The position numbers and the translations under genes were made by a program. From Candidatus Aenigmatarchaeota archaeon (GTDB lineage: Archaea; Aenigmatarchaeota; Aenigmatarchaeia; PWEA01): a DNA stretch of 64,000 nt. Location of the stretch: positions 6,895 through 70,894 of the forward strand of contig PWHK01000020.1 of NCBI GenBank assembly GCA_003554845.1, written 5' to 3'. The notes under the pieces are model-generated. The model worked only from the letters and a program-made list of their open reading frames with translations. It searched no databases and was not told the DNA's origin. Positions 31,423 to 60,380 of the stretch are shown piece by piece. Every line of letters starts with the position of its first letter. The stretch's first letter is position 1.

Positions 31423-31465
31423 TTGAAACTTTAAATAAGTAACACATAAACAATAAAGTGGTAAC

Positions 31466-31963: not shown

Positions 31964-32013
31964 GATATAAAAAGACTTAAAAAGATTAGGATAGAACAAT
32001 AGGTTGTGAAAAG

Positions 32014-36675: not shown

Positions 36676-38731
36676 GGACCCGAAAAAGGGGGATGGTTAT
36701 CCCAAGGAAGAAGGTCTGAGGATGCCTGAAAACAAGGAGAGGAGTTTCAAATCGAGGGAATATGAGACATTTCTAGAAGAGGAAAGAGAGCAGAAAAAAC
36801 TTTCGATATATGAAAAAATGTGCAATATTTCTGAGAATATAATCGTTGTGGAACCAGACGAGGAAAAGAAGAAGGAGATAGAACGATCAATAAACATGAC
36901 GTATATGAACATCACTCCGGCGGGCGCCTATTCCTTTGCTATCTTATTCGGAACCGCCATCTTTGTTATTTCGATAATGCTGATGATACTCGGTATTGCT
37001 TCGATGGTATTCGGCATTCTCATGTTCGTACTGGGTGCCGTTTCTATATATCTTCTTTCAGAATATCCCAACTCACAGGCCAGGTTATTCCGTGTAAAGG
37101 CAGCCGATCAGATAATGCTTGCTATAATCTATATGGTTATCTACATGAGAACTTCCCCTAATCTCGAAGGAGCCATAAAGTTTACTGCTAAGCATCTTGG
37201 TGAACCACTATCCATGGACTTCAAAAAACTACTATGGGATGTAGAAACAGGTAACTATATATCGATGAGAGAAGCCCTTGGAGACTATCTCGAAAAGTGG
37301 GAAGACAACAAGGCATTTGTAGAATCAGTCCAGATAATTCAGGACTCCATGCAACAGACAGGAGAAAAAAGGAAGAGAATGCTCGACGAAGCAATAAACA
37401 CTATGATGACAGGATCCAGGGAGATGATGAAAAACTACTCGAATAAACTCGAGCTTCCTGTGCTCGTAATACATGCCCTTGGTATAATGCTTCCTATCAT
37501 GGTCCTAATAATGTTTCCTATAATAATGCTGATGTTAGAAGAAACCATAAGACCTGCGTTCCTTATAATAGGATACAACATTGTCCTGCCTCTCATAATA
37601 TACCTAACAGGAAAAAGAACTCTGGAGTACAGGCCCATGGGATTTTCGGAGCCGGATATATCAAAACATCCTGATCACATTCCCTCTGGAATGATAAACA
37701 TCGGAGGTAAGGAGATAAAGATATGGCCTATATCTGTTCTTCTGTCGGTTCCTGTAATACTTATAGGAATATACCTGGTCAATTTCTATGGAGGTGGGGA
37801 CATATCAACCCAACTCTACACATCTCTATTCATAACCCTTGGAATAGCCCTGGGCCCTTCGACCTACTTCTATCTGGACTCAAGTGCCAAGCTGAAGCTA
37901 AGAAAGGAGGTGAAGGACATAGAAGATGAGTTTTCAGAATCTCTTTTCTCTCTGGGCAACATACTCAATCTCGGCAAGCCCATGGAAAGAGCTTTGGAAG
38001 AAACTGCAGTAAAAAATAAAGACATGGACATATCAAATATGTTCGAAATAGTTGTAAACAATATCAAAAAAGGTGGCATGAACATAAGAAGAGCCTTTTT
38101 TGACAATAAGTATGGGGCTGTGTGGCATTATCCATCGAATCTCATAATATCCGTCATGAAAATAGTTATGGATGCAGCAGAGAAGGGCTCGGATGTAGTT
38201 TCCAGATCAACTATATCCATATCAAAGTATCTACAGCAGCTCGATGAGATAGAAGAAGATCTTAAGAACATGCTCTCGTCTGAAACCACTTCCATGCAGT
38301 TTCTGGGAACATTTTTGGGGCCCTTCGTAGCAGGAGTTTCTGTGGCCATGGCTGCTATAATGATATCAATATTCCACGGCGTGGGTGGTTCATTGGATGC
38401 ACTGGCAGGACCAAGGACTTCACCAGGAGTAGGTGGAATCGGCGGGATGGGGCTCAATGAAGGTCTGGTAGGTGGATGGGGCTCGGCGGAAAATATGATA
38501 CCTATACCATGGATACAGGTAGTCGTAGGTCTCTACGCTATTCAGACATCCTACCTTCTATCGATGCTGACATCCGGTATAGAAAACGGACCGGGTGATG
38601 AGATCAAAAAAAGACGTAATGCAGCCATAATGATTTTGATAGGTGTAGTAGTTTACGGTCTTTCGATAGCCGTTGTTTGGGAGATCTTCGGAGGACAGAT
38701 TTCAGGACTTCTGTCTGCTACTATAAACTAA
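36656..38731 (+). CDS. polytopic membrane platform protein (FlaJ/TadC-like, T2SS-F-like) - tentative
   Basis: 691 aa with about 9-10 TM helices and cytoplasmic loops. Overlaps the ATPase gene by 20 nt. Assignment rests on genomic context and topology. Confidence 0.5.
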   Translation: MSSRMPKDPKKGDGYPKEEGLRMPENKERSFKSREYETFLEEEREQKKLSIYEKMCNISENIIVVEPDEEKKKEIERSINMTYMNITPAGAYSFAILFGTAIFVISIMLMILGIASMVFGILMFVLGAVSIYLLSEYPNSQARLFRVKAADQIMLAIIYMVIYMRTSPNLEGAIKFTAKHLGEPLSMDFKKLLWDVETGNYISMREALGDYLEKWEDNKAFVESVQIIQDSMQQTGEKRKRMLDEAINTMMTGSREMMKNYSNKLELPVLVIHALGIMLPIMVLIMFPIIMLMLEETIRPAFLIIGYNIVLPLIIYLTGKRTLEYRPMGFSEPDISKHPDHIPSGMINIGGKEIKIWPISVLLSVPVILIGIYLVNFYGGGDISTQLYTSLFITLGIALGPSTYFYLDSSAKLKLRKEVKDIEDEFSESLFSLGNILNLGKPMERALEETAVKNKDMDISNMFEIVVNNIKKGGMNIRRAFFDNKYGAVWHYPSNLIISVMKIVMDAAEKGSDVVSRSTISISKYLQQLDEIEEDLKNMLSSETTSMQFLGTFLGPFVAGVSVAMAAIMISIFHGVGGSLDALAGPRTSPGVGGIGGMGLNEGLVGGWGSAENMIPIPWIQVVVGLYAIQTSYLLSMLTSGIENGPGDEIKKRRNAAIMILIGVVVYGLSIAVVWEIFGGQISGLLSATIN

Positions 38732-38779
38732 AGGAGCAAAACAATAAAAACAAGGTAAAATAAGGTTTATCTGGACCCT

Positions 38780-40009
38780 ATGAAACCTCTAAACGACCAG
38801 AAAGGATCTTCTGTCCTTATTATAATAGTAGTCGGGGTAATAATTATACTCATAGCAGGCAGCCTTGCGACTGTGATGATGAGTCGTATTGCCCAGGACG
38901 TGCTTGGACAAAGTGTCATGTGTGATACTTTTTGTGAGATGCAGTCCACTGTAGAAGAAGTGACAACACTGGATTTTATGCCAAGTCATGGTCCAACCGG
39001 TACATTCATTTTTACACTGGGGTTGGGACCGGCGGGATTAGCTGGATCCAAAGTATGGAACTGGATAGTAGGAGAAGTAGGAAGAGATAGAGAAGATGTT
39101 GCAAGGGATCTGGCAATAGATTACCTAATCCGACCCGAAGGCATGGGTTGTTACTGTGGCGTGTCCGATGCCAGAGGAAAGTATATACACTTTCTGACAC
39201 CCGGTCCTAGCTCAACCAGGCCACATGTGGCCGAGTTCCACCTAACAGAACAGACTCCGGAAAAACATCTCCAAGAAGAGATAATAGATACAGATGGAAA
39301 CACTATATTCAAACACGGTGGTTATGGCCAAAAAAGTAACTGTGAAGATGAACTTAGTAAGATAGATGAACTTGACAACGGTGAGTACTTGGCCGAACTC
39401 GATATATATCCCGGATGTATAATACTTTCAACCACCGATGACAACTGTGCAATATGGGCATTCGATGAAACCTTCGCAATAACCAACGAAGAAGGAAAGT
39501 CCATAAGGGAACAGGCCGAAGAACAGGATAAAATCATATTCGCTAGCACGATAAGGTCCGATGACCCCGTAAACAGCCTGGGTATTGCAGAAGAGATAGA
39601 GGCAAGTGGCAGACACGACTCCCAGAGGATGCTCCTCGAGCATTACGAAGAGGGTATACACCCCTTCCAGGTTTACTTACCTGTGGTCTGTAAATCAGAG
39701 GAAAGAACTGAAAGACGTGTCCAGGATCCACTTGACAGGGCATGTAGAGAACAGTGCCATGACGGAAACACACTTCTATGGGCTTCCAGGTGTTTCGAAG
39801 GACCAGAAGATGCCGGAGAAATCTACCGTCCTCTGGAGGAAGATTTTCTTCCGGAAGACTATGATGAAACCAGGGACCTGTGCCCTGTGGAAGACGATGA
39901 AAATGAAGAGGAAGAAAGTAACGACGAAGATCGTGGTTATCCCTTCTGCCTCTGTAACACTCCCCGAAGTTATTCATGGGAACTAGATGAAGAATACACA
40001 GAGATATGA
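38780..40009 (+). CDS. class III (prepilin-like) signal peptide protein, large cysteine-rich paralog 1
   Basis: MKPLNDQKG|SSVLIIIVVGVIIIL. Shares GCYCGV, HDSQRMLL, PVVCKS, RACREQC and PFCLC ... YSWE motifs with 40033 and 41282. Confidence 0.55.
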   Translation: MKPLNDQKGSSVLIIIVVGVIIILIAGSLATVMMSRIAQDVLGQSVMCDTFCEMQSTVEEVTTLDFMPSHGPTGTFIFTLGLGPAGLAGSKVWNWIVGEVGRDREDVARDLAIDYLIRPEGMGCYCGVSDARGKYIHFLTPGPSSTRPHVAEFHLTEQTPEKHLQEEIIDTDGNTIFKHGGYGQKSNCEDELSKIDELDNGEYLAELDIYPGCIILSTTDDNCAIWAFDETFAITNEEGKSIREQAEEQDKIIFASTIRSDDPVNSLGIAEEIEASGRHDSQRMLLEHYEEGIHPFQVYLPVVCKSEERTERRVQDPLDRACREQCHDGNTLLWASRCFEGPEDAGEIYRPLEEDFLPEDYDETRDLCPVEDDENEEEESNDEDRGYPFCLCNTPRSYSWELDEEYTEI

Positions 40010-40032
40010 TATCTTGAATTTTTGTGATGTAA

Positions 40033-41136
40033 ATGATTGACGAAAAAGGCAGTTCATTTCTATTCATAATAGTTGTAGCTATAATCTTATCTCTGATCGT
40101 TGGTTCTTTAATTACAGGTGCATTTGCTATGACAGTAAGGACTGTGGTCGGAACCGATCTTTCCTGTCCGACCTTCTGTGCAGTTCAAGCAGACATAGAG
40201 GAATACAGCATGGCAGATATAATGCTACCATCCGTACTACCATTCATAGAGGAAAGCTCGGATGGAATTGCCCATAAAGTAGCAGACTGGATAATACAGC
40301 CAGAAGGACTCGGTTGTTACTGTGGTGTCAAAGAAAGAAGTGGAAGATACATTCATTTTCACACAGGTCCTCCTGGAGAAAGGTCAATAAGAGAACTTCA
40401 CTTGACGGATCAGGACCCACACATACATCTCGACTATCATGTCGGGGATTCCGATGGAAACACATTATTCGACCACAGCTTCGACAAGAGCAACTGCGAG
40501 GAAGACATAAACAGTTTAAAAGAGGTACAGTACTACCAAGACGTCGGCTGTGTAATCGTGGTTAACTCCGACGGAGGATACTGCTCTATACATGTAATAG
40601 GAGAAGGTTCGGTTATAGAAAACAACATAGGTGAAAGTATACAGGATCAGGTTGAAATCAGGGAAACATTAACGACAAACTACGACGAAAACGATCCTAT
40701 TTCGTTTTTTGAAATCGGCGACAGATACAACGTACCTCGATTTGTACATGAAGAAGGAGATATTCTAACATACACGATAGGAGGCCAGCCCTACCAGCAC
40801 GACTCCCAGAGGATGCTCCTCCGGGACTACGACGAATACCTAGGAGCTAAGTTCGCTCTCTATGCTCCTGTTGTCTGCAGAACCTCGGTAGCAGAAGGAC
40901 AGGAAGTTCAGACAAAACTTGATGAAAAATGCAGAGAACAGTGCAAAGAAGACAGGAAGATTTTTCTGTCTTCTGCATGCCATGATATTCCCAGGGAAGG
41001 ATACAAACCGCTACGTGATGAACACCACGAAGAAGACACTTTCTGTGAAAAGGAGGGTAAAGGTCCGTACTGCAGATGTATGCACGAGAAACGGTACTAC
41101 TGGGAGGTAGACGAGGATTATTCGAGAGAAAACTAA
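40033..41136 (+). CDS. class III signal peptide protein, large cysteine-rich paralog 2
   Basis: MIDEKG|SSFLFIIVVAIIL. Same conserved Cys framework. Confidence 0.55.
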   Translation: MIDEKGSSFLFIIVVAIILSLIVGSLITGAFAMTVRTVVGTDLSCPTFCAVQADIEEYSMADIMLPSVLPFIEESSDGIAHKVADWIIQPEGLGCYCGVKERSGRYIHFHTGPPGERSIRELHLTDQDPHIHLDYHVGDSDGNTLFDHSFDKSNCEEDINSLKEVQYYQDVGCVIVVNSDGGYCSIHVIGEGSVIENNIGESIQDQVEIRETLTTNYDENDPISFFEIGDRYNVPRFVHEEGDILTYTIGGQPYQHDSQRMLLRDYDEYLGAKFALYAPVVCRTSVAEGQEVQTKLDEKCREQCKEDRKIFLSSACHDIPREGYKPLRDEHHEEDTFCEKEGKGPYCRCMHEKRYYWEVDEDYSREN

Positions 41137-41168
41137 AAAATAAAAAACAAAATATATTGAATGATACC

Positions 41169-41282
41169 ATGGAAGCAAATATTTCGGTCCTGCTCTGGGT
41201 GATGGTAGCTTTTGTCCTATTTGCACTTTTGGTTGTATTTACTGCCATGTTCTTTGCCGATACATTTGGGATTTTGATATAA
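41169..41282 (+). CDS. small hydrophobic ORF (37 aa, MEANISVLLWVMVAFVLFALLVVF ...)
   Basis: Single TM helix. Its TAA stop overlaps the ATG of the next gene (TAATG). Confidence 0.3.
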   Translation: MEANISVLLWVMVAFVLFALLVVFTAMFFADTFGILI

Positions 41283-42571
41283 TGAAAAACAACATGATCA
41301 ATCAAAAGGGAGCATCGGTAGTTGCCCTGTTTGTAATAATAATTATAATGGTGAGTGCATGGGTTTTAATACAAAGTATAGGCCCCATAACCAGAGCTTC
41401 TATGGAAACCGAGGTATCATGTCCCCTCTTCTGTGATATACATTCAGGCGTGGAGGAATACTCTAGATGGGCATGGTGGCCTGGGTGGCTAGGAGGAAGT
41501 GTAAGCTGGTCCGATATATTTACGAACGAACTCAGAAAAAACATGGTGGAGCCTAAATCAATGGGCTGTTACTGTGGTGTCCAGGAAGAAAGGGGGAAGT
41601 TTATTCACTTCCAGGGAACTACCAGCAGTCTATATGAATTCCACATGACCGATCAGGATCCACTAATGCATCTTCGTATGAAAGCCGATCCGTTTGATCA
41701 CAGACCATCTGATGAATCAACGGTTGAATCATGCCGGTTAGTTGTAGAAAACTACGGAGAACAGTTCAGCCCACCTGTATATGATCCAACCGATCTTCAC
41801 AAGGTTCAGGGATGTATAATTGTTTCTGAATCACCAGGCTGTGCAGTATGGGTATTTGGAGAAGGTTTTTCGATAAGAAGAGATTCAGAGAATTCTATCT
41901 GGGAACAGGCACAGGAACAGGAAAGAGACATAGAAGCCTTTTCCATAGATAGAGGAGAAGACCCTGTTTCAGATCTAAATATAGGCGAAACTATACATGT
42001 CTCGAGTTCAAAGGACCCCTCTCAGAGAATGCTCCTCCGGGAATATGAAAGCGGCGACCGAGATTTCAATCTCTCTACATCCGTGGTATGTAAAAGCATT
42101 GAAACAGCTAAAACAATGCCCACAGATCAACTGGACAGGGCTTGCAACGAATACTGTTCGGACAAGGGTCTCTTCTTTCTAAACTCTGCTTGTCTACAAG
42201 AAAAAAGAAGGGGTTACAATACTCTCCCTGAAGAGTACATAGAACAAGAGAGGAGTGATCTCTGCCCTGAAACAGGAGAACTCCCCTTCTGCCTCTGTGC
42301 TGGTGAAAAGGAATACTACTGGGAAACATACTGGGAAGATTTTTATACAATAACGGTAGAAACCCAGGGTAGTGGAACCGTTGATATCAACCCCGATCTA
42401 GACGAATACTACAGAGGTCAGGGAGTATTACTGGAAGCAGAGGCGGACAACGAATGGGAGTTCAGCCACTGGGAAGGCAACTATCCCACTGGACAAAAAG
42501 AAGATTCGGAGATAACGATAACAGTAGATGGTAACATGGTGCTTAGTGCTGTATTTGAATCAGAGCATTGA
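41282..42571 (+). CDS. class III signal peptide protein, large cysteine-rich paralog 3 (extra C-terminal domain)
   Basis: MKNNMINQKG|ASVVALFVIIII. Carries GCYCGV, PSQRMLL, VVCKS, RACNEYC and PFCLC ... YYWE motifs. Confidence 0.55.
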   Translation: MKNNMINQKGASVVALFVIIIIMVSAWVLIQSIGPITRASMETEVSCPLFCDIHSGVEEYSRWAWWPGWLGGSVSWSDIFTNELRKNMVEPKSMGCYCGVQEERGKFIHFQGTTSSLYEFHMTDQDPLMHLRMKADPFDHRPSDESTVESCRLVVENYGEQFSPPVYDPTDLHKVQGCIIVSESPGCAVWVFGEGFSIRRDSENSIWEQAQEQERDIEAFSIDRGEDPVSDLNIGETIHVSSSKDPSQRMLLREYESGDRDFNLSTSVVCKSIETAKTMPTDQLDRACNEYCSDKGLFFLNSACLQEKRRGYNTLPEEYIEQERSDLCPETGELPFCLCAGEKEYYWETYWEDFYTITVETQGSGTVDINPDLDEYYRGQGVLLEAEADNEWEFSHWEGNYPTGQKEDSEITITVDGNMVLSAVFESEH

Positions 42572-42633
42572 GATCCCTCATTAGATTAAAACTTATAACA
42601 CATAGCCAACATGTATAATATGAGGATGTTTGC

Positions 42634-42816
42634 ATGGAAAGAAATTCTAAATATATCTTTTCCAGTGGTGAGATAAGCATACAGGTCGTAATCATAATAA
42701 TACTCATGTTGATAGGACTCACTGTTGTCCTTATAATATCATCCGGTGTCGGTGGTTTTGGAACAAATGTATCATCGAATATAATGGGATATCTAGCAGA
42801 TGCTATAGGTGCATGA
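42634..42816 (+). CDS. small pilin-like protein (60 aa)
   Basis: Short polar N-terminus then a long hydrophobic helix. Confidence 0.35.
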   Translation: MERNSKYIFSSGEISIQVVIIIILMLIGLTVVLIISSGVGGFGTNVSSNIMGYLADAIGA

Positions 42817-42818
42817 AA

Positions 42819-42971
42819 ATGGAATACGATAAAAAAGGTTTTATAAGTATAATTATGCTTCTGATCATAGCACTTGTGGCACTATCGGTGGGTCTTATGC
42901 TTATACATGCCTTTTGGGGAGGCGGAGGAGGCTTGTTGAATCTACTCATTCAGAGACTCCAAATGGTATAG
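42819..42971 (+). CDS. small pilin-like ORF (about 50 aa, MEYDKKG|FISIIMLLIIALV)
   Basis: Translated by hand. KKG-hydrophobic class III-like start. Not in the supplied track (under 60 aa). Confidence 0.3.
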   Translation: MEYDKKGFISIIMLLIIALVALSVGLMLIHAFWGGGGGLLNLLIQRLQMV

Positions 42972-42979
42972 GTGAAAAA

Positions 42980-43126
42980 ATGTCTATATTCAACGATACG
43001 CTTATAATTTTTCAAAAAAACACAAAGATAATATTCGCCTTAATAGTTTTTGCCCTTCTTATAGGTATACTTTACTACACAATAAATCCTCTGATAGACA
43101 CGTTAATGGGGGCTATAGGTTATTGA
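42980..43126 (+). CDS. small membrane ORF (48 aa)
   Basis: MSIFNDTLIIFQKNTKIIFALIVFALLIGILYY ... Confidence 0.3.
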   Translation: MSIFNDTLIIFQKNTKIIFALIVFALLIGILYYTINPLIDTLMGAIGY

Positions 43127-43127
43127 T

Positions 43128-43844
43128 ATGAACATAATCAACAAGAAGGGTTCAAGATCGCAGAGCGAGTTCATATTTCTTGCAATAAAGGCAGTAATAG
43201 GTATCTTGGCTATAGGTGTTATTGCATTGAGTGTCAGGGGCATGGAGACAGGCTGTAGTACACATGACGAAAATCCATCGGCATGTATAAGCAATACAGA
43301 ATGCAGACCTGCGGTCAGAAGAGAAAAAAGCACATTTTCTATACCTGTTGATATTATGCGGTCTGTAGATATAGTCTATCATACAGAAATAACCGGCGAT
43401 ATAGAATGTCGGGATTCCATAAGGACTCCCAACAACAGATACCACGCCGCAGAGGATGCTCAGTGTGTCTGTCCTGTTGGGTGGGAAGTAATTTTAGACA
43501 GAGAAGATCAGTACTATGGAGTCTGTAGGCTACCAGGAACCAACAACTATCACCCATGTGAGTATCCACCCGACGGCGAACGACAGGAAACAGAATTCAA
43601 AGACATGTGTGAAGATGGAGATAGATACCACGGAGAAGTCTGGATCGACGGAACAGATGAAGAAGCTCCAAATATGTGCTGCGATGATGGAGATACAAAA
43701 GAGTGTGACTCCGATAACATAGATGAAAAATGTGGTGATCTGGTCTGTATTGAAATAGAGGTTGAAGTCGAAGACGGAGAAGAGGAAGAAATCACTTTCT
43801 GGATAGATGAAGAGAGTGTACCTGATATAGAATACATAATTTAA
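43128..43844 (+). CDS. class III signal peptide protein, cysteine-rich mid-size paralog A
   Basis: MNIINKKG|S ... GCSTHDENPSACISNTECRPAV and YHGEVW ... CCDDGDTKEC shared with 43872. Confidence 0.5.
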   Translation: MNIINKKGSRSQSEFIFLAIKAVIGILAIGVIALSVRGMETGCSTHDENPSACISNTECRPAVRREKSTFSIPVDIMRSVDIVYHTEITGDIECRDSIRTPNNRYHAAEDAQCVCPVGWEVILDREDQYYGVCRLPGTNNYHPCEYPPDGERQETEFKDMCEDGDRYHGEVWIDGTDEEAPNMCCDDGDTKECDSDNIDEKCGDLVCIEIEVEVEDGEEEEITFWIDEESVPDIEYII

Positions 43845-43871
43845 AATACACAAAATAAAAAATGAAGCAGA

Positions 43872-44528
43872 ATGTTTTCAAAAAAAGGTACTGCTAAATC
43901 ACAGGAAGAAACACTTTGGTTTATAATCAAGATAGCTATAGTAATCATAGGATTTGTAATTCTAATTGTTGCTTTTCTTAGGATGGAGGCAGGCTGTAGC
44001 AGGCATGATGAAAATCCATCGGCATGTATAAGCGACGAGAGCTGTAGACCTGCAGTTAAAGAGGTGGACTCAGGATGGGACATATATGCATCACTGTATG
44101 GATCATACCGAACGGAAGTGGTGGGTAAGATAGAGTGCAAAGAATCCGTAAGAAAACCTGATACAAGACACCACGCAGCCCATGATGGAAAATGTATATG
44201 CCCGGGTTTCTGGGAAGAAATTATAGACAGAAATCATGACTACTTCGGTGTATGCTATACTGATTACAATGGAGAAGAAATGTACTATCCTTGTCAGTAT
44301 GGCCTAAATGTTCAGGTCGAGGAAATAAAGGACAGTTGCGAAAGCGTTGAAAAATACCACGGAGAAGTATGGGGCTCCGGTTGGAATACCCCCGATAGAT
44401 GTTGCGATGACGGCGAAGTAAAGAAATGTAATATACTCAACAGTGGTGAAACTTGCGCAGACTATACATGCAGATCTGGCCCAGCCAAGCATCAGGTTGT
44501 CGATATCCAGTACTACTGGCAGCCATAA
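43872..44528 (+). CDS. class III signal peptide protein, cysteine-rich mid-size paralog B
   Basis: MFSKKG|T ... GCSRHDENPSACISDESCRPAV and YHGEVW ... CCDDGEVKKC. Confidence 0.5.
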   Translation: MFSKKGTAKSQEETLWFIIKIAIVIIGFVILIVAFLRMEAGCSRHDENPSACISDESCRPAVKEVDSGWDIYASLYGSYRTEVVGKIECKESVRKPDTRHHAAHDGKCICPGFWEEIIDRNHDYFGVCYTDYNGEEMYYPCQYGLNVQVEEIKDSCESVEKYHGEVWGSGWNTPDRCCDDGEVKKCNILNSGETCADYTCRSGPAKHQVVDIQYYWQP

Positions 44529-44572
44529 ACTGCAGTGCACCTTTCAAAAAGATTTAAACAAACACAACAAAG

Positions 44573-44995
44573 TTGTATACGATGAACACCCCAGCAAAGG
44601 GCATAGGCGTAGGAAAATCCCTTACGTTAATACTGATACTGGTTATTCTCTTGTTTACAACCGTCTTAATAGGTGATATATTTACATCCGTGCTTGGTAT
44701 GGGCGTAGGAGATGAGTTCCACATTACAATGGGAGAATTATCTGTATCCTACACTACATCTAGCTCTTTTCAGGAAAAAACTGTTATAGAAGAAAATCTT
44801 CCGATGGCCTGCGAAAAAGTTGTATTTAGAAACAGCACACTAAAGGCCTACCTGGAACATGATGAATTTTACTTTATACCATATACCACACAAGAAATGG
44901 ATAAAGACTTTGAGGTGGAATGTGATTCCTTTGGTAGGGTAAAGTTTATTGACGGAAGGATAGAATCATCTAGCCCTGTCGCTGGAACATTTTAA
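44573..44995 (+). CDS. pilin-like protein (140 aa)
   Basis: MYTMNTPAKG|IGVGKSLTLILILVILLF. Confidence 0.45.
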   Translation: MYTMNTPAKGIGVGKSLTLILILVILLFTTVLIGDIFTSVLGMGVGDEFHITMGELSVSYTTSSSFQEKTVIEENLPMACEKVVFRNSTLKAYLEHDEFYFIPYTTQEMDKDFEVECDSFGRVKFIDGRIESSSPVAGTF

Positions 44996-44997
44996 TT

Positions 44998-45888
44998 ATG
45001 GTGCATAAAATGAAAAACAAAGGAACAACCGGAGGAGACTACATATGGCAGATACTGTTTGTTATAGTAACGATAACCTATCTTGGTGCCTTTTATGTTA
45101 TATTTATAGCCGGTTCAACAGTAGATGTCGAAGGTTTTGAAAGAACCCAGGGAAGACTACAGAGTTCCGCTGCCCACACCAGACTTTTGTCACATCCCGA
45201 TTTTATTTCTACAGGAGAGATCGGCGTATTCGATGAATCACTTCTCAATTCCAAGAACGGCACAGAGAAGCTAGAAGAACTCTACAACCCATCGCTCTGG
45301 ATTTATGTAGAGATAGAAAACATGGAAAACGACGATAAATACATATTTGGTACACCCGGGCCCCTGAAAGCAACGGAAGGATGGTTGACTGAGGATGGGA
45401 ATATGGATACATGGGAAGATGAAGAAATGAGTTCCTGGGATCACGTGGTCGGTAGATACAGTACATTAGTAAACATAGACACCGGCGACGGATTCGATCT
45501 AGCTAAACTATATCTTTACTTCCGGCAGATACCCGACCCTATGATAAAGTTAAAGGAGGGTATTCATATAGCCAGGGAAGAAGGAAGCCATACAGTTACA
45601 CTTTTGCACCCAATCGCGATATGCTGGGAGTACGACTACACGCTATCGGGAAGATACTGCTCAGAAGACGAAGATTCCTTTTCAATAGACGTAAGCCACT
45701 CAGATAAAATAAAGGGTAGTTTTGGTGGATACATGCACCTGAAAGACGTAGAGTTGAAGGCATTCAACGAGGAAGAGGAAAAGTTCGAGATAGACCCGCC
45801 CGGTAGGTTCACGGATGGAAAAATAGACATAGAACTTGCTCATACCGGCGGTAAAACGGTAGAATATGAAATAGTTGACAGATGGTAA
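44998..45888 (+). CDS. pilin-like protein (296 aa)
   Basis: MVHKMKNKG|TTGGDYIWQILFVIVTITYLGAF. Confidence 0.45.
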   Translation: MVHKMKNKGTTGGDYIWQILFVIVTITYLGAFYVIFIAGSTVDVEGFERTQGRLQSSAAHTRLLSHPDFISTGEIGVFDESLLNSKNGTEKLEELYNPSLWIYVEIENMENDDKYIFGTPGPLKATEGWLTEDGNMDTWEDEEMSSWDHVVGRYSTLVNIDTGDGFDLAKLYLYFRQIPDPMIKLKEGIHIAREEGSHTVTLLHPIAICWEYDYTLSGRYCSEDEDSFSIDVSHSDKIKGSFGGYMHLKDVELKAFNEEEEKFEIDPPGRFTDGKIDIELAHTGGKTVEYEIVDRW

Positions 45889-46420
45889 AATGAAAAAATT
45901 AATCGGTAGAAAGGGTGGCTTTATGGTCTTGTTAGCCACGCTTATATTCACCGCCGTGTTCTTAATTACTCTGTTTATAGTCGGTCCCTTTATAGGAGGG
46001 GCGCAGATGGAAATAGAAGTAATGTCAGAAAATCCCGCCGGATTCAGCATAGAGAAAAACACACTTCTCAGAACCAATGAAACAAAAAGAAAACTTATGG
46101 CTTTTGGTGAGGGAGATGAATCAGTAGACGAATCCATCGCCAGGACAAGCGACAAATTCGGTGGGACCTATTCGGATTCCCATATACTACTTTTTAGGTT
46201 CGAAAAGGATGATGATGTAGAGATAGTCGGTTTTTCGTGTTCGGATGGATGTGGATACATAGAAGGATATGAAGAAGAGATGGATATTATCTTAAAAAAT
46301 TCAGAAGTAGTAGCACCGAGACCCATAATGTTACCAAAAGGCAAGATGGGATCCTCATATTCTGTCTACTTCAACCCCGAGGAAATGGCCGCACGGGTTA
46401 TGCAAGGCACACAATATTAA
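45875..46420 (+). CDS. pilin-like protein (181 aa)
   Basis: GRKG|GFMVLLATLIFTAVFLITLFIV. Overlaps the previous gene by 14 nt. Confidence 0.45.
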   Translation: MTDGKMKKLIGRKGGFMVLLATLIFTAVFLITLFIVGPFIGGAQMEIEVMSENPAGFSIEKNTLLRTNETKRKLMAFGEGDESVDESIARTSDKFGGTYSDSHILLFRFEKDDDVEIVGFSCSDGCGYIEGYEEEMDIILKNSEVVAPRPIMLPKGKMGSSYSVYFNPEEMAARVMQGTQY

Positions 46421-46427
46421 TGATAAA

Positions 46428-46985
46428 ATGTTAGGAAACAAGGGATTGAAAATTACGATATTAGTTTTCTCGGCAGTATTGATAGGCGTTACCTTAGCAA
46501 CAGCGGTAGTTGTGGGTGTAATGACGTACCACGGAGAGGAACAGTCCTGGTTCGGACAGGGTGAAAGAGTTACAGCAAAGGTCCAGTACGATCATGCACT
46601 GGGTGCAGTAGAAGATTCGTTTTTACTGGGTATATACTGGGGTATACAGGAATCAGGCAATGACTGGGAAAATGCAGAAGAATCCATCGAGGAAGAAATA
46701 GAAGAAAAAATAAAGCATTATTTGGATAGGATAGAAGGTTTTTACGAAGGTAGTTATGATACGCAACCCATCTATCTTGAAACAAGAATACGGATCGATG
46801 ATGTTGAAATTGAATTATACTTAGACGAAGAAACCATAGACAGTGTAAAGATGTCAGGTAATATGACTTCCTACAGGAACCAGCCCTCGATAGCAATATC
46901 CGATGATTTTTACATCGAAGAAAACTTCCAGGAAAACTACTCAACGCTCTATGATATGTCAAATAATCCATTAGAAAATATGTAA
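46428..46985 (+). CDS. pilin-like protein (185 aa)
   Basis: MLGNKG|LKITILVFSAVLIGVTLA. Confidence 0.45.
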   Translation: MLGNKGLKITILVFSAVLIGVTLATAVVVGVMTYHGEEQSWFGQGERVTAKVQYDHALGAVEDSFLLGIYWGIQESGNDWENAEESIEEEIEEKIKHYLDRIEGFYEGSYDTQPIYLETRIRIDDVEIELYLDEETIDSVKMSGNMTSYRNQPSIAISDDFYIEENFQENYSTLYDMSNNPLENM

Positions 46986-47020
46986 ATTTTATAAGAAAGG
47001 GAGGGTCATTTAACATTAAG

Positions 47021-48001
47021 ATGAAGGAAAAGGGGTTCATGTTTGGAATAACACCGGTCGTTCTTTTAATCCTAGGTGGTTTGGTCGTGCTTGTATTTTC
47101 CGTGGGATCGGGAACCTTTTTGGAAATTTCTGAAGGTCTTATAGATGTAGGAGAGGAGGAGGCAAGAAGGGTCCACAGGAGATTTAAATATCCTATCTTG
47201 AGACATGAACTTCCAGAGGAAGGATTTCCCGATGAAGGATCGGGACAGGTTGTGACCTCCTGTAGATCCATAGGATCAGAGGGTTCTTATCAACTACAGG
47301 ACTCTATAGAATGCCCTGATCACGAACCAATCGAAGAGTTCAGGGGAACGCTGGATGGCCGTGGACATGAAATATCCGATCTAAATGTACCTCTATTTGA
47401 AATGATATCATCGGAGGGCACTGTGAAAAACATTAGAGTTTCAGGGGTGGATATACATCAAGAAGACTCCGCAGGCGGTCTTTCGGTGACAAACCAAGGA
47501 ACAGTTGAAAGGGTACATGTTTCCGGAACAGTTCAGGGCGGAAGCTATGTTGGTGGCCTTACTGGAATAAACAGTGGAAATATAAGGAAATCTTCCTCCA
47601 CGGCAGACGTAGGTGGAACAATCAATGTAGGAGTACTGGTAGGACAACATACCTCCGGCTCCGTAATAAATTCATATACGATCGGTTCTGTAAAAGGCAT
47701 ATCAAATGTAGGCGGATTAATAGGTTCTGGAAGTGGAGAAGTAGATAAAACATATGCAGCCAGTTATGTAGATGGTTCTACCAATGTACAAGGGTTGGTA
47801 GGATCTGGTTCTGCCAATTCAGTTAAAAACTCCTTCTGGAGCACTGACACATCTGGAATTCTCCCTGAAGAAATTTCTGGGAGTATTATAGGAACGCCGA
47901 AAGTCGACGAAGCCATGGAAGACAAGGAAATCTATGTTTCCACGAGAACGGATGGTCTAGAAGAGCCATGGGACTTCGATGAAATATGGACCATGGGGTA
48001 A
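47021..48001 (+). CDS. pilin-like protein with GLUG-type glycine-rich repeats
   Basis: MKEKG|FMFGITPVVLLILGG. Then about four ~27-aa repeats containing GGLTG / GGLIG / QGLVG, ending FWSTDTSG, as in GLUG-motif surface proteins. Confidence 0.55.
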   Translation: MKEKGFMFGITPVVLLILGGLVVLVFSVGSGTFLEISEGLIDVGEEEARRVHRRFKYPILRHELPEEGFPDEGSGQVVTSCRSIGSEGSYQLQDSIECPDHEPIEEFRGTLDGRGHEISDLNVPLFEMISSEGTVKNIRVSGVDIHQEDSAGGLSVTNQGTVERVHVSGTVQGGSYVGGLTGINSGNIRKSSSTADVGGTINVGVLVGQHTSGSVINSYTIGSVKGISNVGGLIGSGSGEVDKTYAASYVDGSTNVQGLVGSGSANSVKNSFWSTDTSGILPEEISGSIIGTPKVDEAMEDKEIYVSTRTDGLEEPWDFDEIWTMG

Positions 48002-48002
48002 A

Positions 48003-48164
48003 ATGAACTACATTCTTTCAAAAAAAGGGCTACAGTTCCATATTCTACTTTACATAATACTGGGACTTATCGTACTAACTATCATCGCTACCCAAGCACT
48101 AACCACAGAAGGATTCTTCGATGGGTTTTCCGATCTACTTAGGGAGATTATATTTTCAAGCTAA
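48003..48164 (+). CDS. small pilin-like protein (53 aa)
   Basis: MNYILSKKG|LQFHILLYIILGLIVL. Internal Met of the listed ORF chosen as start. Confidence 0.35.
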   Translation: MNYILSKKGLQFHILLYIILGLIVLTIIATQALTTEGFFDGFSDLLREIIFSS

Positions 48165-48208
48165 GTTAAACCATAAGTTTTAAATCAGACAGTCGATAAG
48201 GTTTAACC

Positions 48209-48466
48209 ATGAAAATCAAGTCCGGGAAGAGATTAAAGCCTCTGTACCTCGGAGCTCTGGTTTTAAGTTTGATAGTGATCCTTTCCATAATAGTTTTAAG
48301 CCTGGATATAACAGAGGGGCCCACCAAAGAAGATGAACTAAGCCGTTCTTGTGTAGGCTACCTCCAGAGAAACTGTTGCAGTAATCCAGAAATAGGTCGG
48401 TGCCAAGAGTTTGAAAACGAATTATGGACACACCAAGAAGATCCGTTTGATATATGTTGTGAATAA
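48209..48466 (+). CDS. small cysteine-rich membrane-anchored protein (85 aa)
   Basis: N-terminal TM helix and 7 Cys in the C-terminal 40 aa. Confidence 0.4.
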   Translation: MKIKSGKRLKPLYLGALVLSLIVILSIIVLSLDITEGPTKEDELSRSCVGYLQRNCCSNPEIGRCQEFENELWTHQEDPFDICCE

Positions 48467-48469
48467 ATA

Positions 48470-48781
48470 ATGTCAACTAAAAAAGGCTTAGGAGGCTCAA
48501 TTAGAATCGTCGTAGTATCAATAATCGTACTTGTTATTTTGTTCCTTGTTGCCACTTTTTTTGTCACAGGAAGTGAAGAACTGACGGAAATGGGGTTCCG
48601 CGGAAAGACCGAACTGGCCTGCCATAGATTCGAAACCAGGGGATGCTGCATAAACTACGATGAAGAGGATCCCGGACAGTGTGCTGTAGACAAGATATGG
48701 GAAGGCTACAACGAAGAAGAAATGGACGAAGAAGAATTAGAAAAACTGGAGGAAGTCGACTGGGAAGAAAAATGCTGCTGA
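48470..48781 (+). CDS. small cysteine-rich pilin-like protein (103 aa)
   Basis: MSTKKG|LGGSIRIVVVSIIVLVILF. Acidic Cys-rich tail ending CC. Confidence 0.45.
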   Translation: MSTKKGLGGSIRIVVVSIIVLVILFLVATFFVTGSEELTEMGFRGKTELACHRFETRGCCINYDEEDPGQCAVDKIWEGYNEEEMDEEELEKLEEVDWEEKCC

Positions 48782-48790
48782 GGGGATAAA

Positions 48791-49060
48791 ATGATTTCAA
48801 AAAAAGGTCTTGCGCTTCCGGTTACGATAATAATAGTCTTAGTTATATCCATTATAGTTCTGCTTATACTGATTACATTCATGGGATGGGGATGGGAAAC
48901 GGGGCCTATAAACCAGACACAGGAAGGAATAGACGAACAGTACGAAGAACAAGACCCTCTAGGAGATATATTCAACTCGACGCAAAATCACCACAGGACA
49001 TCAAAACACACACACAGGCCTGGTATACATACGGTGGAGGAATGGTTGGATGCTCGATAA
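48791..49060 (+). CDS. pilin-like protein (89 aa)
   Basis: MISKKG|LALPVTIIIVLVISIIVLL. Confidence 0.45.
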   Translation: MISKKGLALPVTIIIVLVISIIVLLILITFMGWGWETGPINQTQEGIDEQYEEQDPLGDIFNSTQNHHRTSKHTHRPGIHTVEEWLDAR

Positions 49061-49358
49061 AAGGGGTATAGAGCTTTCAATAAGGTTAATAGTTATTCTG
49101 CTTATCTCCACAATAGTACTTCTAGCAGTTCTCGTATTTTTCGGCAATGTGTGGGATACAAGTCCATTTGAACATGCCATGGGAAACTTAACGGAACAGC
49201 AGTCAGATCTAGGCAGTAAAAATCTCGGTGGTTTTGGAAGGATGGTGCGCCTGCCGGGATTTTCAGAGACATTGGAAAGATCAATGCTTCCTTTGAACCC
49301 GGGCTTCGAGCATGGGAGGCTCGAGTCCTACCAGACTAGACCACAGGCGCATATTTAG
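49050..49358 (+). CDS. pilin-like protein (102 aa)
   Basis: MLDKRG|IELSIRLIVILLISTIVLL. Overlaps the previous gene by 11 nt. Confidence 0.45.
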   Translation: MLDKRGIELSIRLIVILLISTIVLLAVLVFFGNVWDTSPFEHAMGNLTEQQSDLGSKNLGGFGRMVRLPGFSETLERSMLPLNPGFEHGRLESYQTRPQAHI

Positions 49359-49377
49359 AGCATCTTCTTGATCCTAT

Positions 49378-50229: not shown

Positions 50230-50449
50230 CCATATCACCTGCCTTTCTAAATACCCCGTCGGAATCCTTTGGTATAGGCCGCGAGCATCGGTTTGTCTTC
50301 TCCTTGTAGGTCCTGCCGCAGTTGTGACATCTGACCCTTTTCTCCGCCTTGGACTTCTGTTTGAACCCACAAACAGGACAGCTATGGTAAAAGACTCTTT
50401 TCTTCATCGAACATAGTTTGGACTTCATGTCTAAAAAGTTATGTGGCAA
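50222..50449 (-). CDS. small zinc-ribbon protein
   Basis: CPVCGF ... CHNCGR. A start at the internal Met MKKRVFY is also possible. Confidence 0.4.
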   Translation of the reverse strand: MPHNFLDMKSKLCSMKKRVFYHSCPVCGFKQKSKAEKRVRCHNCGRTYKEKTNRCSRPIPKDSDGVFRKAGDMDD

Positions 50450-56171: not shown

Positions 56172-56177
56172 CAAGAG

Positions 56178-57694: not shown

Positions 57695-57704
57695 CTCTTT
57701 AGTT

Positions 57705-59640: not shown

Positions 59641-59976
59641 CTAATTGAGGCATGCAGGACAGTTTTCGGGTCCACCTGGAACAATATCGGAACAGTCATG
59701 CCATTCGCCACCGACCTGTACACATACATCGGCATTGGAAACAGGAGAATCTTCGGGTGCATCGCAGCTAAGGCCTGTTAGTTCACTTGACCAACTGCCT
59801 TCGTTGCAGTACTGAAAAGTAGAGACTGGACCACAACACATATTTATCTTGTTTCTGTCTTCTATGGCTCCTGTCTCAAAACCTCCCATAAAGAAGGCAA
59901 CCAGTGCTAGAAGAACTATGACGGCTACTGCAAGTATTACAAGCATGTTTACAGGAAGTGATATACCCTTTTTCAT
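59641..59976 (-). CDS. class III signal peptide (pilin-like) cysteine-rich protein, distal paralog 1
   Basis: MKKG|ISLPVNMLVILAVAVIVLL. Eight Cys in the C-terminal domain. Confidence 0.5.
   Translation of the reverse strand: MKKGISLPVNMLVILAVAVIVLLALVAFFMGGFETGAIEDRNKINMCCGPVSTFQYCNEGSWSSELTGLSCDAPEDSPVSNADVCVQVGGEWHDCSDIVPGGPENCPACLN
59700..59810. repeat. 111-nt segment identical to 60098-60208 (inside the paralogous pilin-like genes)
   Basis: Seen directly: identical string gccattcgccaccgacctgtacacatacatcggcattggaaacagg ... ccttcgttgcagt in both genes. Confidence 0.8.
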
Positions 59977-60038
59977 ACTGTCACCGAAGTAAAACTTAGA
60001 CTGATCTACTTAAAATATTATCCCATGCTCTGGAAAAA

Positions 60039-60380
60039 CTAGTTCATACAGGCAGGACAATTACCTGGCCCTCCGGGTATAACAGACGAACAGTCGTGCC
60101 ATTCGCCACCGACCTGTACACATACATCGGCATTGGAAACAGGAGAATCTTCGGGTGCATCGCAGCTAAGGCCTGTTAGTTCACTTGACCAACTGCCTTC
60201 GTTGCAGTGGTTAAAGGTTACTACAGAACTACAGCATCTACTTACAACAGTCTGCTCGTCCACAGCTCCTGTCTCGAAGCCTCCCATAAAGAAGGCAACT
60301 AGTGCTAGAAGAACTATAACGGCTACTGCAAGTATTACAAGCATGTTTATAGGAAGGGTAACACCTTTTTTTGAATTCAT
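60039..60380 (-). CDS. class III signal peptide (pilin-like) cysteine-rich protein, distal paralog 2
   Basis: MNSKKG|VTLPINMLVILAVAVIVLL. Shares identical DNA blocks with 59641-59976. Confidence 0.5.
   Translation of the reverse strand: MNSKKGVTLPINMLVILAVAVIVLLALVAFFMGGFETGAVDEQTVVSRCCSSVVTFNHCNEGSWSSELTGLSCDAPEDSPVSNADVCVQVGGEWHDCSSVIPGGPGNCPACMN
60098..60208. repeat. second copy of the 111-nt identical segment
   Basis: See 59700-59810. Confidence 0.8.

What the first reader, a model, noticed from the sequence alone, without database searches (positions are those of the whole stretch)
47021..48001. Pilin-like protein carrying GLUG-type glycine-rich repeats
After a prepilin-like N-terminus (MKEKG then hydrophobic residues) the protein has about four tandem ~27-residue repeats. 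They are rich in G/S/V with recurring GGL-T/I-G and V-x-G-S, and end in FWSTDTSG. GLUG repeats are known from bacterial IgA1-protease-like and other surface or adhesin proteins. Fusion to a class III signal is unusual and fits an adhesive tip or minor pilin role.
Basis: partly seen in the sequence, partly recalled or inferred. Interest (0 to 1): 0.6.

Follow-up and report, generated by a model that had tools for sequence, protein, structure and literature searches.

The report
Archaeal pilin-like protein with GLUG beta-helix
This is a real gene in the pilus operon of a tiny DPANN-type archaeon; it joins a pilin-style membrane leader to a GLUG beta-helix domain, a plausible but untested adhesive pilus subunit of a kind already catalogued in bacteria.

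Summary
The ORF at 47021..48001 (+, 326 aa) is real and under purifying selection. Syntenic orthologs share 76% and 47% identity, and dN/dS is about 0.19.

Residues 73-326 form a complete GLUG-type right-handed beta-helix. It has six coils of 26-27 residues plus conserved caps.
- Repeat periodicity exceeds all 500 shuffles.
- Pfam Peptidase_M26_N scores above its cut-off; Glug scores just below.
- More than 230 homologs were found, nearly all listed ones carrying Glug.
- The AlphaFold model (pLDDT 90) matches the IgA1-protease beta-helix and PDB 3N6Z.
- There is no HExxH motif and no protease domain.

The N-terminus, MKEKG followed by a 22-residue hydrophobic helix, fits the archaeal class III signal rule. 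The gene is the 16th of 21 tightly packed same-strand genes. A FlaI/TadA-like ATPase and a T2SSF platform protein come first. Of the 19 genes that follow, 16 carry the same [KR]-G + helix start. The whole operon is conserved in an Aenigmatarchaeota MAG from a soda lake.

The best reading is a modular minor pilin-like subunit that displays a binding module. Cleavage, incorporation into a filament and adhesion are all inferred.

The fusion is not unusual. Other archaeal genes pair class III leaders with GLUG, and bacterial pilin-IPR011493 architectures were catalogued in 2021. I file it as a new member of a known kind, of modest interest.

The parts
47021..48001 (+). Whole ORF, 326 aa plus stop: pilin-like leader + GLUG beta-helix protein
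   Evidence: An exact copy is in public data (P0121, unnamed). Orthologs P0002 (76%) and P0003 (47%) lie in syntenic loci. pN 0.138 / pS 0.493 against the 76% ortholog.
47021..47035 (+). Leader MKEKG (res 1-5): Lys at -2 and Gly at -1 of the putative prepilin-peptidase site
   Evidence: Read from the sequence. The rule is G/A/S at -1 and a charged residue at -2, ahead of the H-domain (PMC4371748). Of the 19 genes after the platform gene, 16 show the same motif under the strict rule.
47036..47104 (+). Hydrophobic helix (res 6-28), the H-domain or alpha1-N equivalent
   Evidence: Mean Kyte-Doolittle hydropathy of 2.91 over the best 17 residues. The AF2 model has a helix at 11-28.
47105..47236 (+). 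Charged juxtamembrane helix and linker (res 29-72), conserved among the three orthologs only
   Evidence: The AF2 model has a helix at 33-50 but pLDDT there is about 50. Orthologs conserve FLEISEGL.D.GEEEARRVHR.FKYPIL. Other GLUG homologs cover only 31-85% of the query, essentially the GLUG module.
47237..47386 (+). N-terminal cap of the GLUG module (res 73-122), including Cys81, Cys98 and the F.G.LDGRGH.I motif
   Evidence: Alignment A1 has near-invariant F107, G109 and G113. The Peptidase_M26_N match covers residues 105-169.
47387..47863 (+). Six beta-helix coils of 26-27 residues (res 123-281); the last ends in FWSTDTSG
   Evidence: Periodicity statistics, units in register, a regular three-strand-per-coil DSSP pattern with pLDDT 97-99, and two Glug stretches in Pfam.
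47864..47998 (+). C-terminal cap (res 282-326): ...GTPKVDEAMEDK...PWDFDEIWTMG
   Evidence: Matches the family consensus SFWD..TSG...GGTGKTT.EM....TF....WDF...W.I in alignment A1; W323 is near-invariant.
34393..36675 (+). Operon context: type IV filament assembly ATPase (760 aa)
   Evidence: Pfam T2SSE, 51.5 bits. The best NCBIfam matches are FlaI (138 bits) and TadA, both below their equivalog cut-offs.
36656..38731 (+). Operon context: platform membrane protein (691 aa, about 7 TM segments)
   Evidence: Pfam T2SSF at 24.2 bits, just below the 25.2 cut-off. It overlaps the ATPase gene by 20 nt.
38780..49358 (+). Nineteen consecutive genes with gaps of 62 nt or less. Sixteen begin M-x(1-12)-[KR]-G + TM helix under the strict rule; the GLUG gene is the 14th of the 19.
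   Evidence: The same pattern and gene order are found in L001 and L004-L006.
59641..60380 (-). Two 80%-identical, Cys-rich, 111/113-aa pilin-like genes, candidate stand-alone major pilins for the same machinery
   Evidence: Their N-termini resemble those of the genes at 48791 and 49050 (BLASTP E 1e-10 to 1e-6).

Best explanation
The gene encodes a modular, pilin-like surface protein of a DPANN archaeon related to Aenigmatarchaeota. It has four parts: a five-residue basic leader ending in Lys-Gly, a hydrophobic helix of about 22 residues, a charged segment of about 45 residues conserved among orthologs, and a complete GLUG-type right-handed beta-helix (res 73-326).

Proposed mechanism, with each step marked:
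1. The Sec system inserts the protein and the hydrophobic helix anchors it in the membrane (inferred).
2. A PibD/FlaK-type prepilin peptidase removes MKEKG (inferred from the motif; the peptidase is not in the window).
3. The co-encoded FlaI/TadA-like ATPase and T2SSF platform assemble it, through its N-terminal helix, with the other class III-type products of the operon into a type IV filament (inferred from conserved gene linkage).
4. Its head of about 250 residues is far bulkier than those of its small neighbours, so it is a low-abundance subunit, most likely at the filament tip (inferred by analogy with bacterial modular pilins).
5. The non-enzymatic beta-helix is the ligand-binding surface. 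It would attach the cell to a substrate, or in a DPANN symbiont possibly to a host cell (speculative).

Shown here: the gene is real and conserved, the domain is a GLUG beta-helix, and the leader type and operon context are conserved across three lineages.
For: Domain identity:
- Pfam Peptidase_M26_N scores 34.4 bits (cut-off 27.7) and Glug 18.9 (cut-off 20.5).
- There are 235 homologs, nearly all of the 120 listed with PF07581.
- phmmer against PDB finds the S. pneumoniae IgA1 protease at E 8e-5 over query residues 109-288.
- The AF2 model has pLDDT 90.2 and pTM 0.81.
- Foldseek finds 6XJA/6XJB/7JGJ/7UVK and 3N6Z at E 3e-5 to 5e-4 with probability 1.00. In the solved protease this region is a non-catalytic beta-helix (PMC7695701).
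- Repeat periodicity is significant.

Pilin-like leader:
- K(-2) and G(-1) precede a 22-residue H-domain, which fits the published archaeal rule.
- Sixteen of the 19 genes after the platform gene carry the same motif under the strict rule. Only four questionable matches occur elsewhere in 64 kb, apart from three further pilin-like genes at 59.6-61.5 kb.

Machinery and conservation:
- The ATPase and platform genes open the same tightly packed 21-gene array.
- Gene order and leaders are conserved in an Aenigmatarchaeota MAG and a more distant lineage.

Precedent:
- Other archaeal GLUG proteins carry canonical pilin leaders: MNKKGVSAVVATV in L008 (x3), AQGTIEYLVIIA in L009 (x3), and PF07790+PF07581 in P0045 and P0085.
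- Bacterial modular pilins are established adhesins and are probably tip-located (PMC8179133). Six IPR012902-IPR011493 architectures are listed there.
- Weaker fold matches include beta-helix adhesins: L. reuteri SRRP and PfbA.
Against: - No prepilin peptidase was found in the window. The multi-TM ORFs tested are Rhomboid, SpoIIM or have no match.
- The protein and its neighbours hit no archaeal pilin N-terminal HMM in Pfam or NCBIfam, even at E up to 1.
- The 47% ortholog has K-I-G rather than K-G, so the charged -2 residue is not conserved.
- No recognisable globular pilin head lies between the helix and the beta-helix, and the model is unreliable for residues 29-60 (pLDDT about 50).
- A long Sec signal peptide or an uncleaved signal anchor cannot be excluded from sequence alone.
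- No ligand or function is known for any GLUG domain, so 'adhesin' rests on analogy.
- Other archaeal class III-GLUG genes (L008, L009, L010) are not next to a recognisable ATPase or platform gene within 10 kb.
Confidence: 0.6

Rival explanations
1. It is an uncleaved, membrane-anchored (type II signal-anchor) surface protein. It sits in the envelope and displays the beta-helix at the cell surface, or it serves as an accessory or scaffold for the filament machinery. It is not itself polymerised.
For: There is a single N-terminal TM helix. It hits no pilin HMM. The charged -2 residue is lost in the 47% ortholog. No pilin head domain is evident. Published surveys say archaeal TFF loci often encode adhesin-like or S-layer-like accessory proteins whose place in the structure is unknown.
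Against: The basic-Gly motif directly before the helix is shared with 15 other operon genes under the strict rule, including one of 52 aa that is little more than a helix. That pattern is hard to explain without a common processing or assembly route. Independent archaeal lineages fuse GLUG to canonical pilin leaders.
Confidence: 0.22
2. It is a Sec-secreted protein whose N-terminus is an ordinary, if long, signal peptide cut near VGSG|T. The beta-helix is then released or bound to the envelope and acts as an enzyme, such as a glycan-degrading or proteolytic factor, as in pectate-lyase-like beta-helices or M26 proteases.
For: Small residues at -3/-1 (G-S-G) follow the hydrophobic stretch. Peptidase_M26_N is the top Pfam hit. 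Pectate lyases and pectin esterases appear among distant fold matches, at E 0.1-2. Raynaud et al. read the IPR011493 module as a predicted M26 peptidase.
Against: There is no HExxH motif and no M26 middle or C-terminal catalytic domain; the protein ends 45 residues after the helix. The M26_N match covers only the last 70 profile positions, which lie in the region corresponding to the non-catalytic beta-helix of the solved enzyme. The hydrophobic stretch is about 22 residues, which is TM length. The lyase matches are not significant.
Confidence: 0.12
3. It is not a genuine feature: a chance ORF, or low-complexity Gly/Ser/Val sequence that only looks repetitive.
For: The Pfam Glug score is just under the gathering cut-off.
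Against: Orthologs are conserved with pN/pS of about 0.28 and synteny is fully conserved. Periodicity exceeds all 500 shuffles. The beta-helix model is very confident. Sequence and fold matches to solved structures are significant.
Confidence: 0.01

Closest known systems
Beta-helix of the N-terminal domain of Gram-positive M26 IgA1 metalloproteases (S. pneumoniae 6XJA/6XJB/7JGJ; G. haemolysans 7UVK)
   Same: It has the same repeat family and fold. phmmer gives E 8e-5 over query residues 109-288. Foldseek gives E 3e-5 to 5e-4, with rmsd 3.1-3.8 A over 230-254 columns for 6XJB, 7UVK, 7UVL and 7JGJ. It is a short beta-helix without protruding subdomains (PMC7695701).
   Different: In those proteases the helix is one domain of a ~2000-residue, cell-wall-attached enzyme and gates the active site. 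Here it is the whole ectodomain of a 326-aa archaeal protein with a pilin-type leader. It has no HExxH motif and no catalytic domains.
BACOVA_03286 of Bacteroides ovatus (PDB 3N6Z), a stand-alone 339-residue GLUG beta-helix protein deposited as 'putative IgA1 protease'
   Same: It is the most similar in size and overall shape: TM-score 0.52 / 0.51, E 4e-5, 18% identity. It is a single-module GLUG protein with no protease domain.
   Different: It is bacterial and its function is unknown. Nothing seen here links it to a pilin leader or a pilus operon.
Bacterial modular type IV pilins (S. sanguinis PilB with a vWA module, PilC with a lectin module; the catalogued architecture IPR012902-IPR011493)
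   Same: The design is the same: a class III leader and hydrophobic helix carry a functional module that is not specific to pili and is presented by the filament, probably at the tip (PMC8179133). Six bacterial proteins with IPR012902 plus IPR011493 are listed there. From memory, IPR011493 is the InterPro GLUG entry; the authors call it M26-associated.
   Different: Those proteins have the bacterial prepilin leader (G|F...E5, N-methylation) and a complete small pilin module before the added module. This one has an archaeal-type K-G leader and no evident pilin head. No GLUG-bearing pilin has been studied experimentally.
Archaeal class III-signal proteins with functional ectodomains (Sulfolobus bindosome sugar-binding proteins; adhesin-like proteins in archaeal TFF loci)
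   Same: A class III leader and hydrophobic helix are fused directly to a non-pilin functional domain and depend on a dedicated ATPase/platform pair. Adhesin-like and beta-helical proteins are noted as common in archaeal TFF loci.
   Different: The functional domain differs: substrate-binding protein, PilY-like or Ig-fold rather than GLUG. GLUG is not mentioned in either survey.
Unannotated archaeal GLUG proteins with canonical pilin leaders (P0060 and paralogs in L008; P0106 and paralogs in L009; P0045 and P0085 with PF07790+PF07581)
   Same: They have the same two-part architecture and are homologous in the GLUG module (E 1e-10 to 1e-16). Their leaders are MNKKGVSAVVATV... or ...AQGTIEYLVIIA....
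   Different: They are 364-662 aa (the L008 and L009 paralogs 525-662 aa), and those in L008 and L009 sit in tandem triplets. In the loci read (L008, L009), no recognisable ATPase or platform gene lies nearby. Their leaders match known pilin families, whereas the window protein's leader matches none.

Membership tests
GLUG motif / GLUG beta-helix proteins (Pfam PF07581) | Score at or above the Pfam gathering cut-off for PF07581 | tested here: not met
   18.9 bits against a cut-off of 20.5, with two stretches. The overlapping model Peptidase_M26_N does pass, at 34.4 against 27.7. The 76% ortholog P0002 carries a precomputed PF07581 hit, marked faint in the contig table.
GLUG motif / GLUG beta-helix proteins (Pfam PF07581) | Tandem Gly-rich repeats of about 26-28 residues with a VGGL.G core | tested here: met
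   Six units of 26-27 residues. Periodicity z is 5.19 against a maximum of 4.2 in 500 shuffles.
GLUG motif / GLUG beta-helix proteins (Pfam PF07581) | Significant sequence homology to proteins that carry the domain, including the conserved caps | tested here: met
   235 hits at E <= 1e-3, and nearly all of the 120 listed carry PF07581. The consensus F.G.FDG.GH.I ... SFWD..TSG ... WDF...W is shared.
GLUG motif / GLUG beta-helix proteins (Pfam PF07581) | Right-handed beta-helix fold matching solved GLUG-containing structures | tested here: met
   AF2 pLDDT 90.2. Foldseek probability 1.00 to 6XJA, 3N6Z, 6XJB, 7UVK and 7JGJ.
M26 IgA1-specific metalloendopeptidase | HExxH zinc-binding motif and the large middle and C-terminal catalytic domains | tested here: not met
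   No HE..H in the sequence. The protein is 326 aa. The Pfam match covers only profile positions 181-250 of the N-terminal-region model, and the NCBIfam ZmpA/ZmpB matches are local at 17-21 bits against a cut-off of 3000.
Archaeal type IV pilin / class III signal peptide protein | Processing motif before the H-domain: G/A/S at -1 and a charged residue at -2 | tested here: met
   MKEK-G|FMFG..., judged by the rule in PMC4371748. The motif is kept in the 76% ortholog (QKG|S) but is K-I-G|S in the 47% ortholog.
Archaeal type IV pilin / class III signal peptide protein | Hydrophobic helix of about 20 residues immediately after the processing site | tested here: met
   Residues 6-28; hydropathy 2.91; model helix at 11-28.
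Archaeal type IV pilin / class III signal peptide protein | Match to a curated pilin/archaellin N-terminal model (for example PF07790, PF04021 or the NCBIfam archaeal N-terminal models) | tested here: not met
   No such hit for this protein or nine neighbours at E <= 1 in Pfam or NCBIfam.
Archaeal type IV pilin / class III signal peptide protein | Genetic linkage to a type IV filament ATPase and platform protein | tested here: met
   It lies in the same 21-gene array with gaps of 62 nt or less, conserved in L001 and L004-L006.
Archaeal type IV pilin / class III signal peptide protein | A cognate prepilin peptidase (PibD/FlaK/EppA) in the genome | tested here: inconclusive
   None was found among the multi-TM ORFs of the 64-kb window that were tested or in the 20-kb orthologous loci. 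The rest of the genome was not available.
Archaeal type IV pilin / class III signal peptide protein | Cleavage of the leader and incorporation into a filament | not testable with these tools
   This needs protein chemistry or imaging.
Modular type IV pilin (sensu Raynaud et al. 2021) | A complete pilin module (alpha1 helix plus small beta-sheet head) followed by a linker and a functional module | tested here: inconclusive
   The functional module is clear. Between the helix and that module lie only about 45 residues, modelled as a helix at 33-50 with pLDDT about 50. No beta-sheet head is evident.

The most novel reading that the evidence does not exclude
In this Aenigmatarchaeota-like DPANN lineage, the conserved 21-gene type IV filament operon is the apparatus the symbiont uses to find and hold its host cell. 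The GLUG beta-helix subunit would be the tip-located host-recognition module. That would also give the widespread but functionally blank GLUG domain its first defined role, as a filament-presented ligand-binding module. The evidence here does not exclude this.
Probability: 0.2. Interest if true: 0.6.

Novelty: new member of a known kind. Interest (0 to 1): 0.3.

Why it matters
GLUG domains occur in hundreds of surface proteins of bacteria and archaea, but none has an assigned ligand or role beyond the gating helix of IgA1 proteases. A small GLUG protein wired into a conserved pilus operon is a clean candidate for testing whether the domain is an adhesion module. DPANN archaea depend on contact with hosts, and the molecules that mediate that contact are mostly unknown. 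A conserved operon with a single bulky pilin-like subunit with a recognised fold gives a concrete target. Conceptually it adds little, because attaching a functional module to a pilin is an established design.

Tried and rejected
- The first class III scan had a regex error and returned nothing; it was corrected.
- The genome-contig scan returned a single locus, the Aenigmatarchaeota MAG. It gives taxonomy but not distribution.
- The search for a prepilin peptidase in the window found none: the multi-TM ORFs tested are Rhomboid, SpoIIM or unmatched.
- A regex count of class III leaders among the 120 homologs mixed in ordinary Sec and lipoprotein signals. I relied on manual reading instead. About 6-7 of the 120 are convincing: P0002, P0003, P0045, P0060, P0085, P0106 and perhaps P0115.
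- The literature search found GLUG in only four papers, none about pilins. Neither archaeal TFF survey mentions it.
- Cluster look-up gave no public names for the protein or its orthologs.
- The M26 protease reading was considered and rejected: no HExxH and no catalytic domains.
- The ARAGORN tRNA-Gly at 49263-49346 was checked with Rfam and stays doubtful.

Full report
**Observation**

The ORF at 47021..48001 on the + strand is present and encodes 326 residues beginning MKEKGFMFGITPVVLLILGGLVVLVFSVGSG. The repeats are real. Within residues 105-285 the BLOSUM62 self-comparison peaks at offsets 53, 26, 27 and 79, with z of 5.19, 4.1, 3.7 and 3.1. The largest z in 500 composition-preserving shuffles was 4.2.

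In register there are six units of 26-27 residues: 123-149, 150-175, 176-201, 202-228, 229-254 and 255-281. They are anchored on PLF / GGL / GGL / GVL / GGL / QGL, and the last contains FWSTDTSG at residues 272-279.

The gene is real.
- An exact copy exists in public data, unnamed (P0121).
- Full-length orthologs of 76% and 47% identity lie in fully syntenic loci.
- Against the 76% ortholog pN is 0.138 and pS is 0.493, giving dN/dS of about 0.19.

The ATG at 47021 is the better start. One public gene call begins at Met7. The 76% ortholog has no Met at that position but keeps a basic-Gly leader.

**What the C-terminal three quarters is**

- Pfam gives Peptidase_M26_N at 34.4 bits, above the 27.7 cut-off. 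It matches only profile positions 181-250 to residues 105-169. Glug scores 18.9 bits, just under the 20.5 cut-off.
- The large-database search gives 235 homologs, and nearly all of the 120 listed carry PF07581.
- A 72-sequence alignment shows that the whole module from about residue 73 to the C-terminus is the standard GLUG cassette. It has an N-cap with F.G.(F/L)DG.GH.I, VGGL.G coils, and a C-cap SFWD..TSG ... GTGKTT.EM ... WDF...W.
- The AlphaFold2 model is confident, with mean pLDDT 90.2, pTM 0.81, and 97-99 across residues 90-300. It has three short strands per coil.
- Foldseek against the PDB returns the IgA1-protease structures 6XJA, 6XJB, 7JGJ, 7UVK and 7UVL, plus the stand-alone Bacteroides protein 3N6Z. 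E-values run from 3e-5 to 5e-4 with probability 1.00, and nothing else is significant.
- Sequence search of the PDB agrees (E 8e-5, query residues 109-288).
- In the solved pneumococcal enzyme this region is a compact, non-catalytic beta-helix that moves to gate the active site (PMC7695701).
- The archaeal protein has no HExxH and stops 45 residues after the helix.

It is therefore a GLUG beta-helix and not a protease.

**What the N-terminus and the surroundings say**

The leader has Lys at -2 and Gly at -1 directly before a 22-residue hydrophobic helix. That is the published criterion for substrates of archaeal prepilin peptidases (PMC4371748).

Context is the stronger argument. The gene is the 16th of 21 consecutive + strand genes (34393..49358) separated by -20 to +62 nt.
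- The first is a T2SSE-family ATPase. Its best NCBIfam matches are archaellum FlaI and TadA, both well below their equivalog cut-offs.
- The second is a 7-TM protein with a T2SSF domain.
- Of the next 19 genes, 16 begin M-x(1-12)-[KR]-G followed by a TM helix under the strict rule. One of these is a 52-aa product that is little more than a helix.
- Outside this array the same scan finds only three further pilin-like genes (59.6-61.5 kb, - strand) and four doubtful matches in 64 kb.
- The leaders and the gene order are conserved in both orthologous lineages.

The nearest genome is a Candidatus Aenigmatarchaeota MAG (T1Sed10_94). One orthologous locus comes from a sample labelled as soda-lake sediment. 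The window also carries archaeal markers: FEN1/XPG and the RuBisCO/AMP-pathway trio.

**Mechanism**

The best-supported reading is a modular, pilin-like minor subunit.
1. It is inserted through Sec.
2. A PibD-type peptidase trims it after Gly5.
3. The operon's ATPase and platform assemble it through its hydrophobic helix.
4. Because of its bulky head it sits at low copy number, probably at the filament tip, and presents the beta-helix as a binding surface.

Only the domain identity, the leader type and the conserved linkage are shown. Cleavage, incorporation, position and binding are inferred.

The analogy is with bacterial modular pilins, where PilB and PilC of S. sanguinis were shown to be adhesins and are modelled at the tip (PMC8179133). 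It also draws on archaeal class III-signal proteins with non-pilin ectodomains, such as the bindosome sugar-binding proteins.

**Weaknesses**

- No prepilin peptidase was found in the window.
- No curated pilin N-terminal model matches this protein or its neighbours.
- The 47% ortholog reads K-I-G instead of K-G.
- No pilin head domain is evident, and residues 29-60 are poorly modelled.
- No GLUG domain has a known ligand.

The main rivals are an uncleaved membrane-anchored surface or accessory protein (about 0.22) and a Sec-cleaved secreted protein or enzyme (about 0.12).

**Is the fusion unusual?**

It is not. Among the 120 listed homologs several are archaeal proteins with textbook pilin leaders.
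- Three tandem genes in L008 begin MNKKGVSAVVATVLIVMITVAAAG.
- Three in L009 have ...AQGTIEYLVIIAIVVV.
- P0045 and P0085 carry PF07790 plus PF07581; a source labels P0085 'flagellin-like protein'.

The 2021 survey of bacterial modular pilins lists six proteins with the architecture IPR012902-IPR011493. The authors describe the second module as M26-associated. From memory, IPR011493 is the InterPro GLUG entry.

Recent surveys of archaeal type IV filament loci report adhesin-like and beta-helical class III proteins as common accessories, though neither mentions GLUG. GLUG itself appears in only four papers of the searchable library, none about pili.

What is specific here is that the GLUG gene is embedded in a conserved filament operon of a DPANN lineage, and that its leader belongs to no curated family.

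**Verdict**

I file it as a new member of a known kind (a modular pilin-like protein with a GLUG beta-helix module), with interest about 0.3.

The most novel reading still open is that this operon is a DPANN host-attachment apparatus with the GLUG subunit as its recognition tip. I put that at about 0.2 probability.

Noticed in passing
window 38780-42571 (+): Three paralogous class III-type proteins of 409, 367 and 429 aa share 32-34% identity and have 14 Cys each. The third ends in a Flg_new_2 (divergent InlB B-repeat) domain. That domain is fused to GLUG in the same polypeptide in 10 of the 120 listed GLUG homologs, whereas here the two domains sit on separate proteins of one operon.
   Followed up: partly
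window 41172-41282, 42634-42816, 42813-42971, 42980-43126 and 48003-48164 (+): Five very small ORFs of 36-60 aa are conserved in the orthologous operons and consist of little more than one hydrophobic helix. Two of them (the 52-aa and 53-aa products) have K-G leaders; the mature 52-aa product would be about 43 residues. They could be unusually short pilins or membrane parts of the machinery.
   Followed up: partly
window 43128-43844 and 43872-44528 (+): These are tandem paralogs at 44% identity. Each has a K-G leader and 14 cysteines, and neither has a family match.
   Followed up: partly
window 59641-59976 and 60039-60380 (-): Two Cys-rich pilin-like genes of 111 and 113 aa are 80% identical and share an identical hydrophobic helix (NMLVILAVAVIVLLALVAFFM). 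Their N-termini resemble the last two operon genes (48791, 49050). They are candidate stand-alone major pilins. A third small K-G + helix ORF lies at 61277-61450 (-).
   Followed up: partly
window 49263-49346 (-): ARAGORN calls an 84-nt tRNA-Gly(CCC) that overlaps the 3' end of ORF 49050-49358. Rfam gives only 24.2 bits (gathering 29), and the T-arm region (18 model positions) is matched by only two bases in the alignment. It may be an atypical or intron-bearing archaeal tRNA, a remnant, or a false call. The ORF is 102 aa here but 83 aa in the ortholog.
   Followed up: partly
window 49358-49378, compared with L001 12022-13420: The orthologous loci have a PALP (pyridoxal-phosphate enzyme) gene between the last pilin-like gene and the OGG glycosylase gene. 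The window lacks it, and its OGG ORF (49378-50370, -) is about 45-50 codons longer at the N-terminus than in the orthologs.
   Followed up: no
window 55317-59189 (+): An archaeal AMP-salvage trio lies here: an IF-2B-family protein (ribose-1,5-bisphosphate isomerase-like), the RuBisCO large subunit, and a nucleoside/AMP phosphorylase-like protein. This is typical of DPANN genomes.
   Followed up: partly
window 30955-33107 (+): Four consecutive ORFs of 155-184 aa each have five predicted TM segments. The two that were tested have no Pfam match. They look like a tandem family of small membrane proteins just upstream of the filament operon.
   Followed up: no
window 34393-36675 (+): The filament ATPase is 760 aa, and its first ~290 residues lie outside the ATPase-family matches. 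The start of the protein is Cys-rich (MVKMPCDYEYNEKENKIEVNCSGCIYG). Variable N-terminal domains are reported to distinguish archaeal TFF subsystems.
   Followed up: no
window 47021-47998 (+): The GLUG protein contains no N-x-S/T sequon, which is notable for an archaeal surface protein. It has exactly two cysteines (81 and 98), both in the N-cap of the beta-helix.
   Followed up: no
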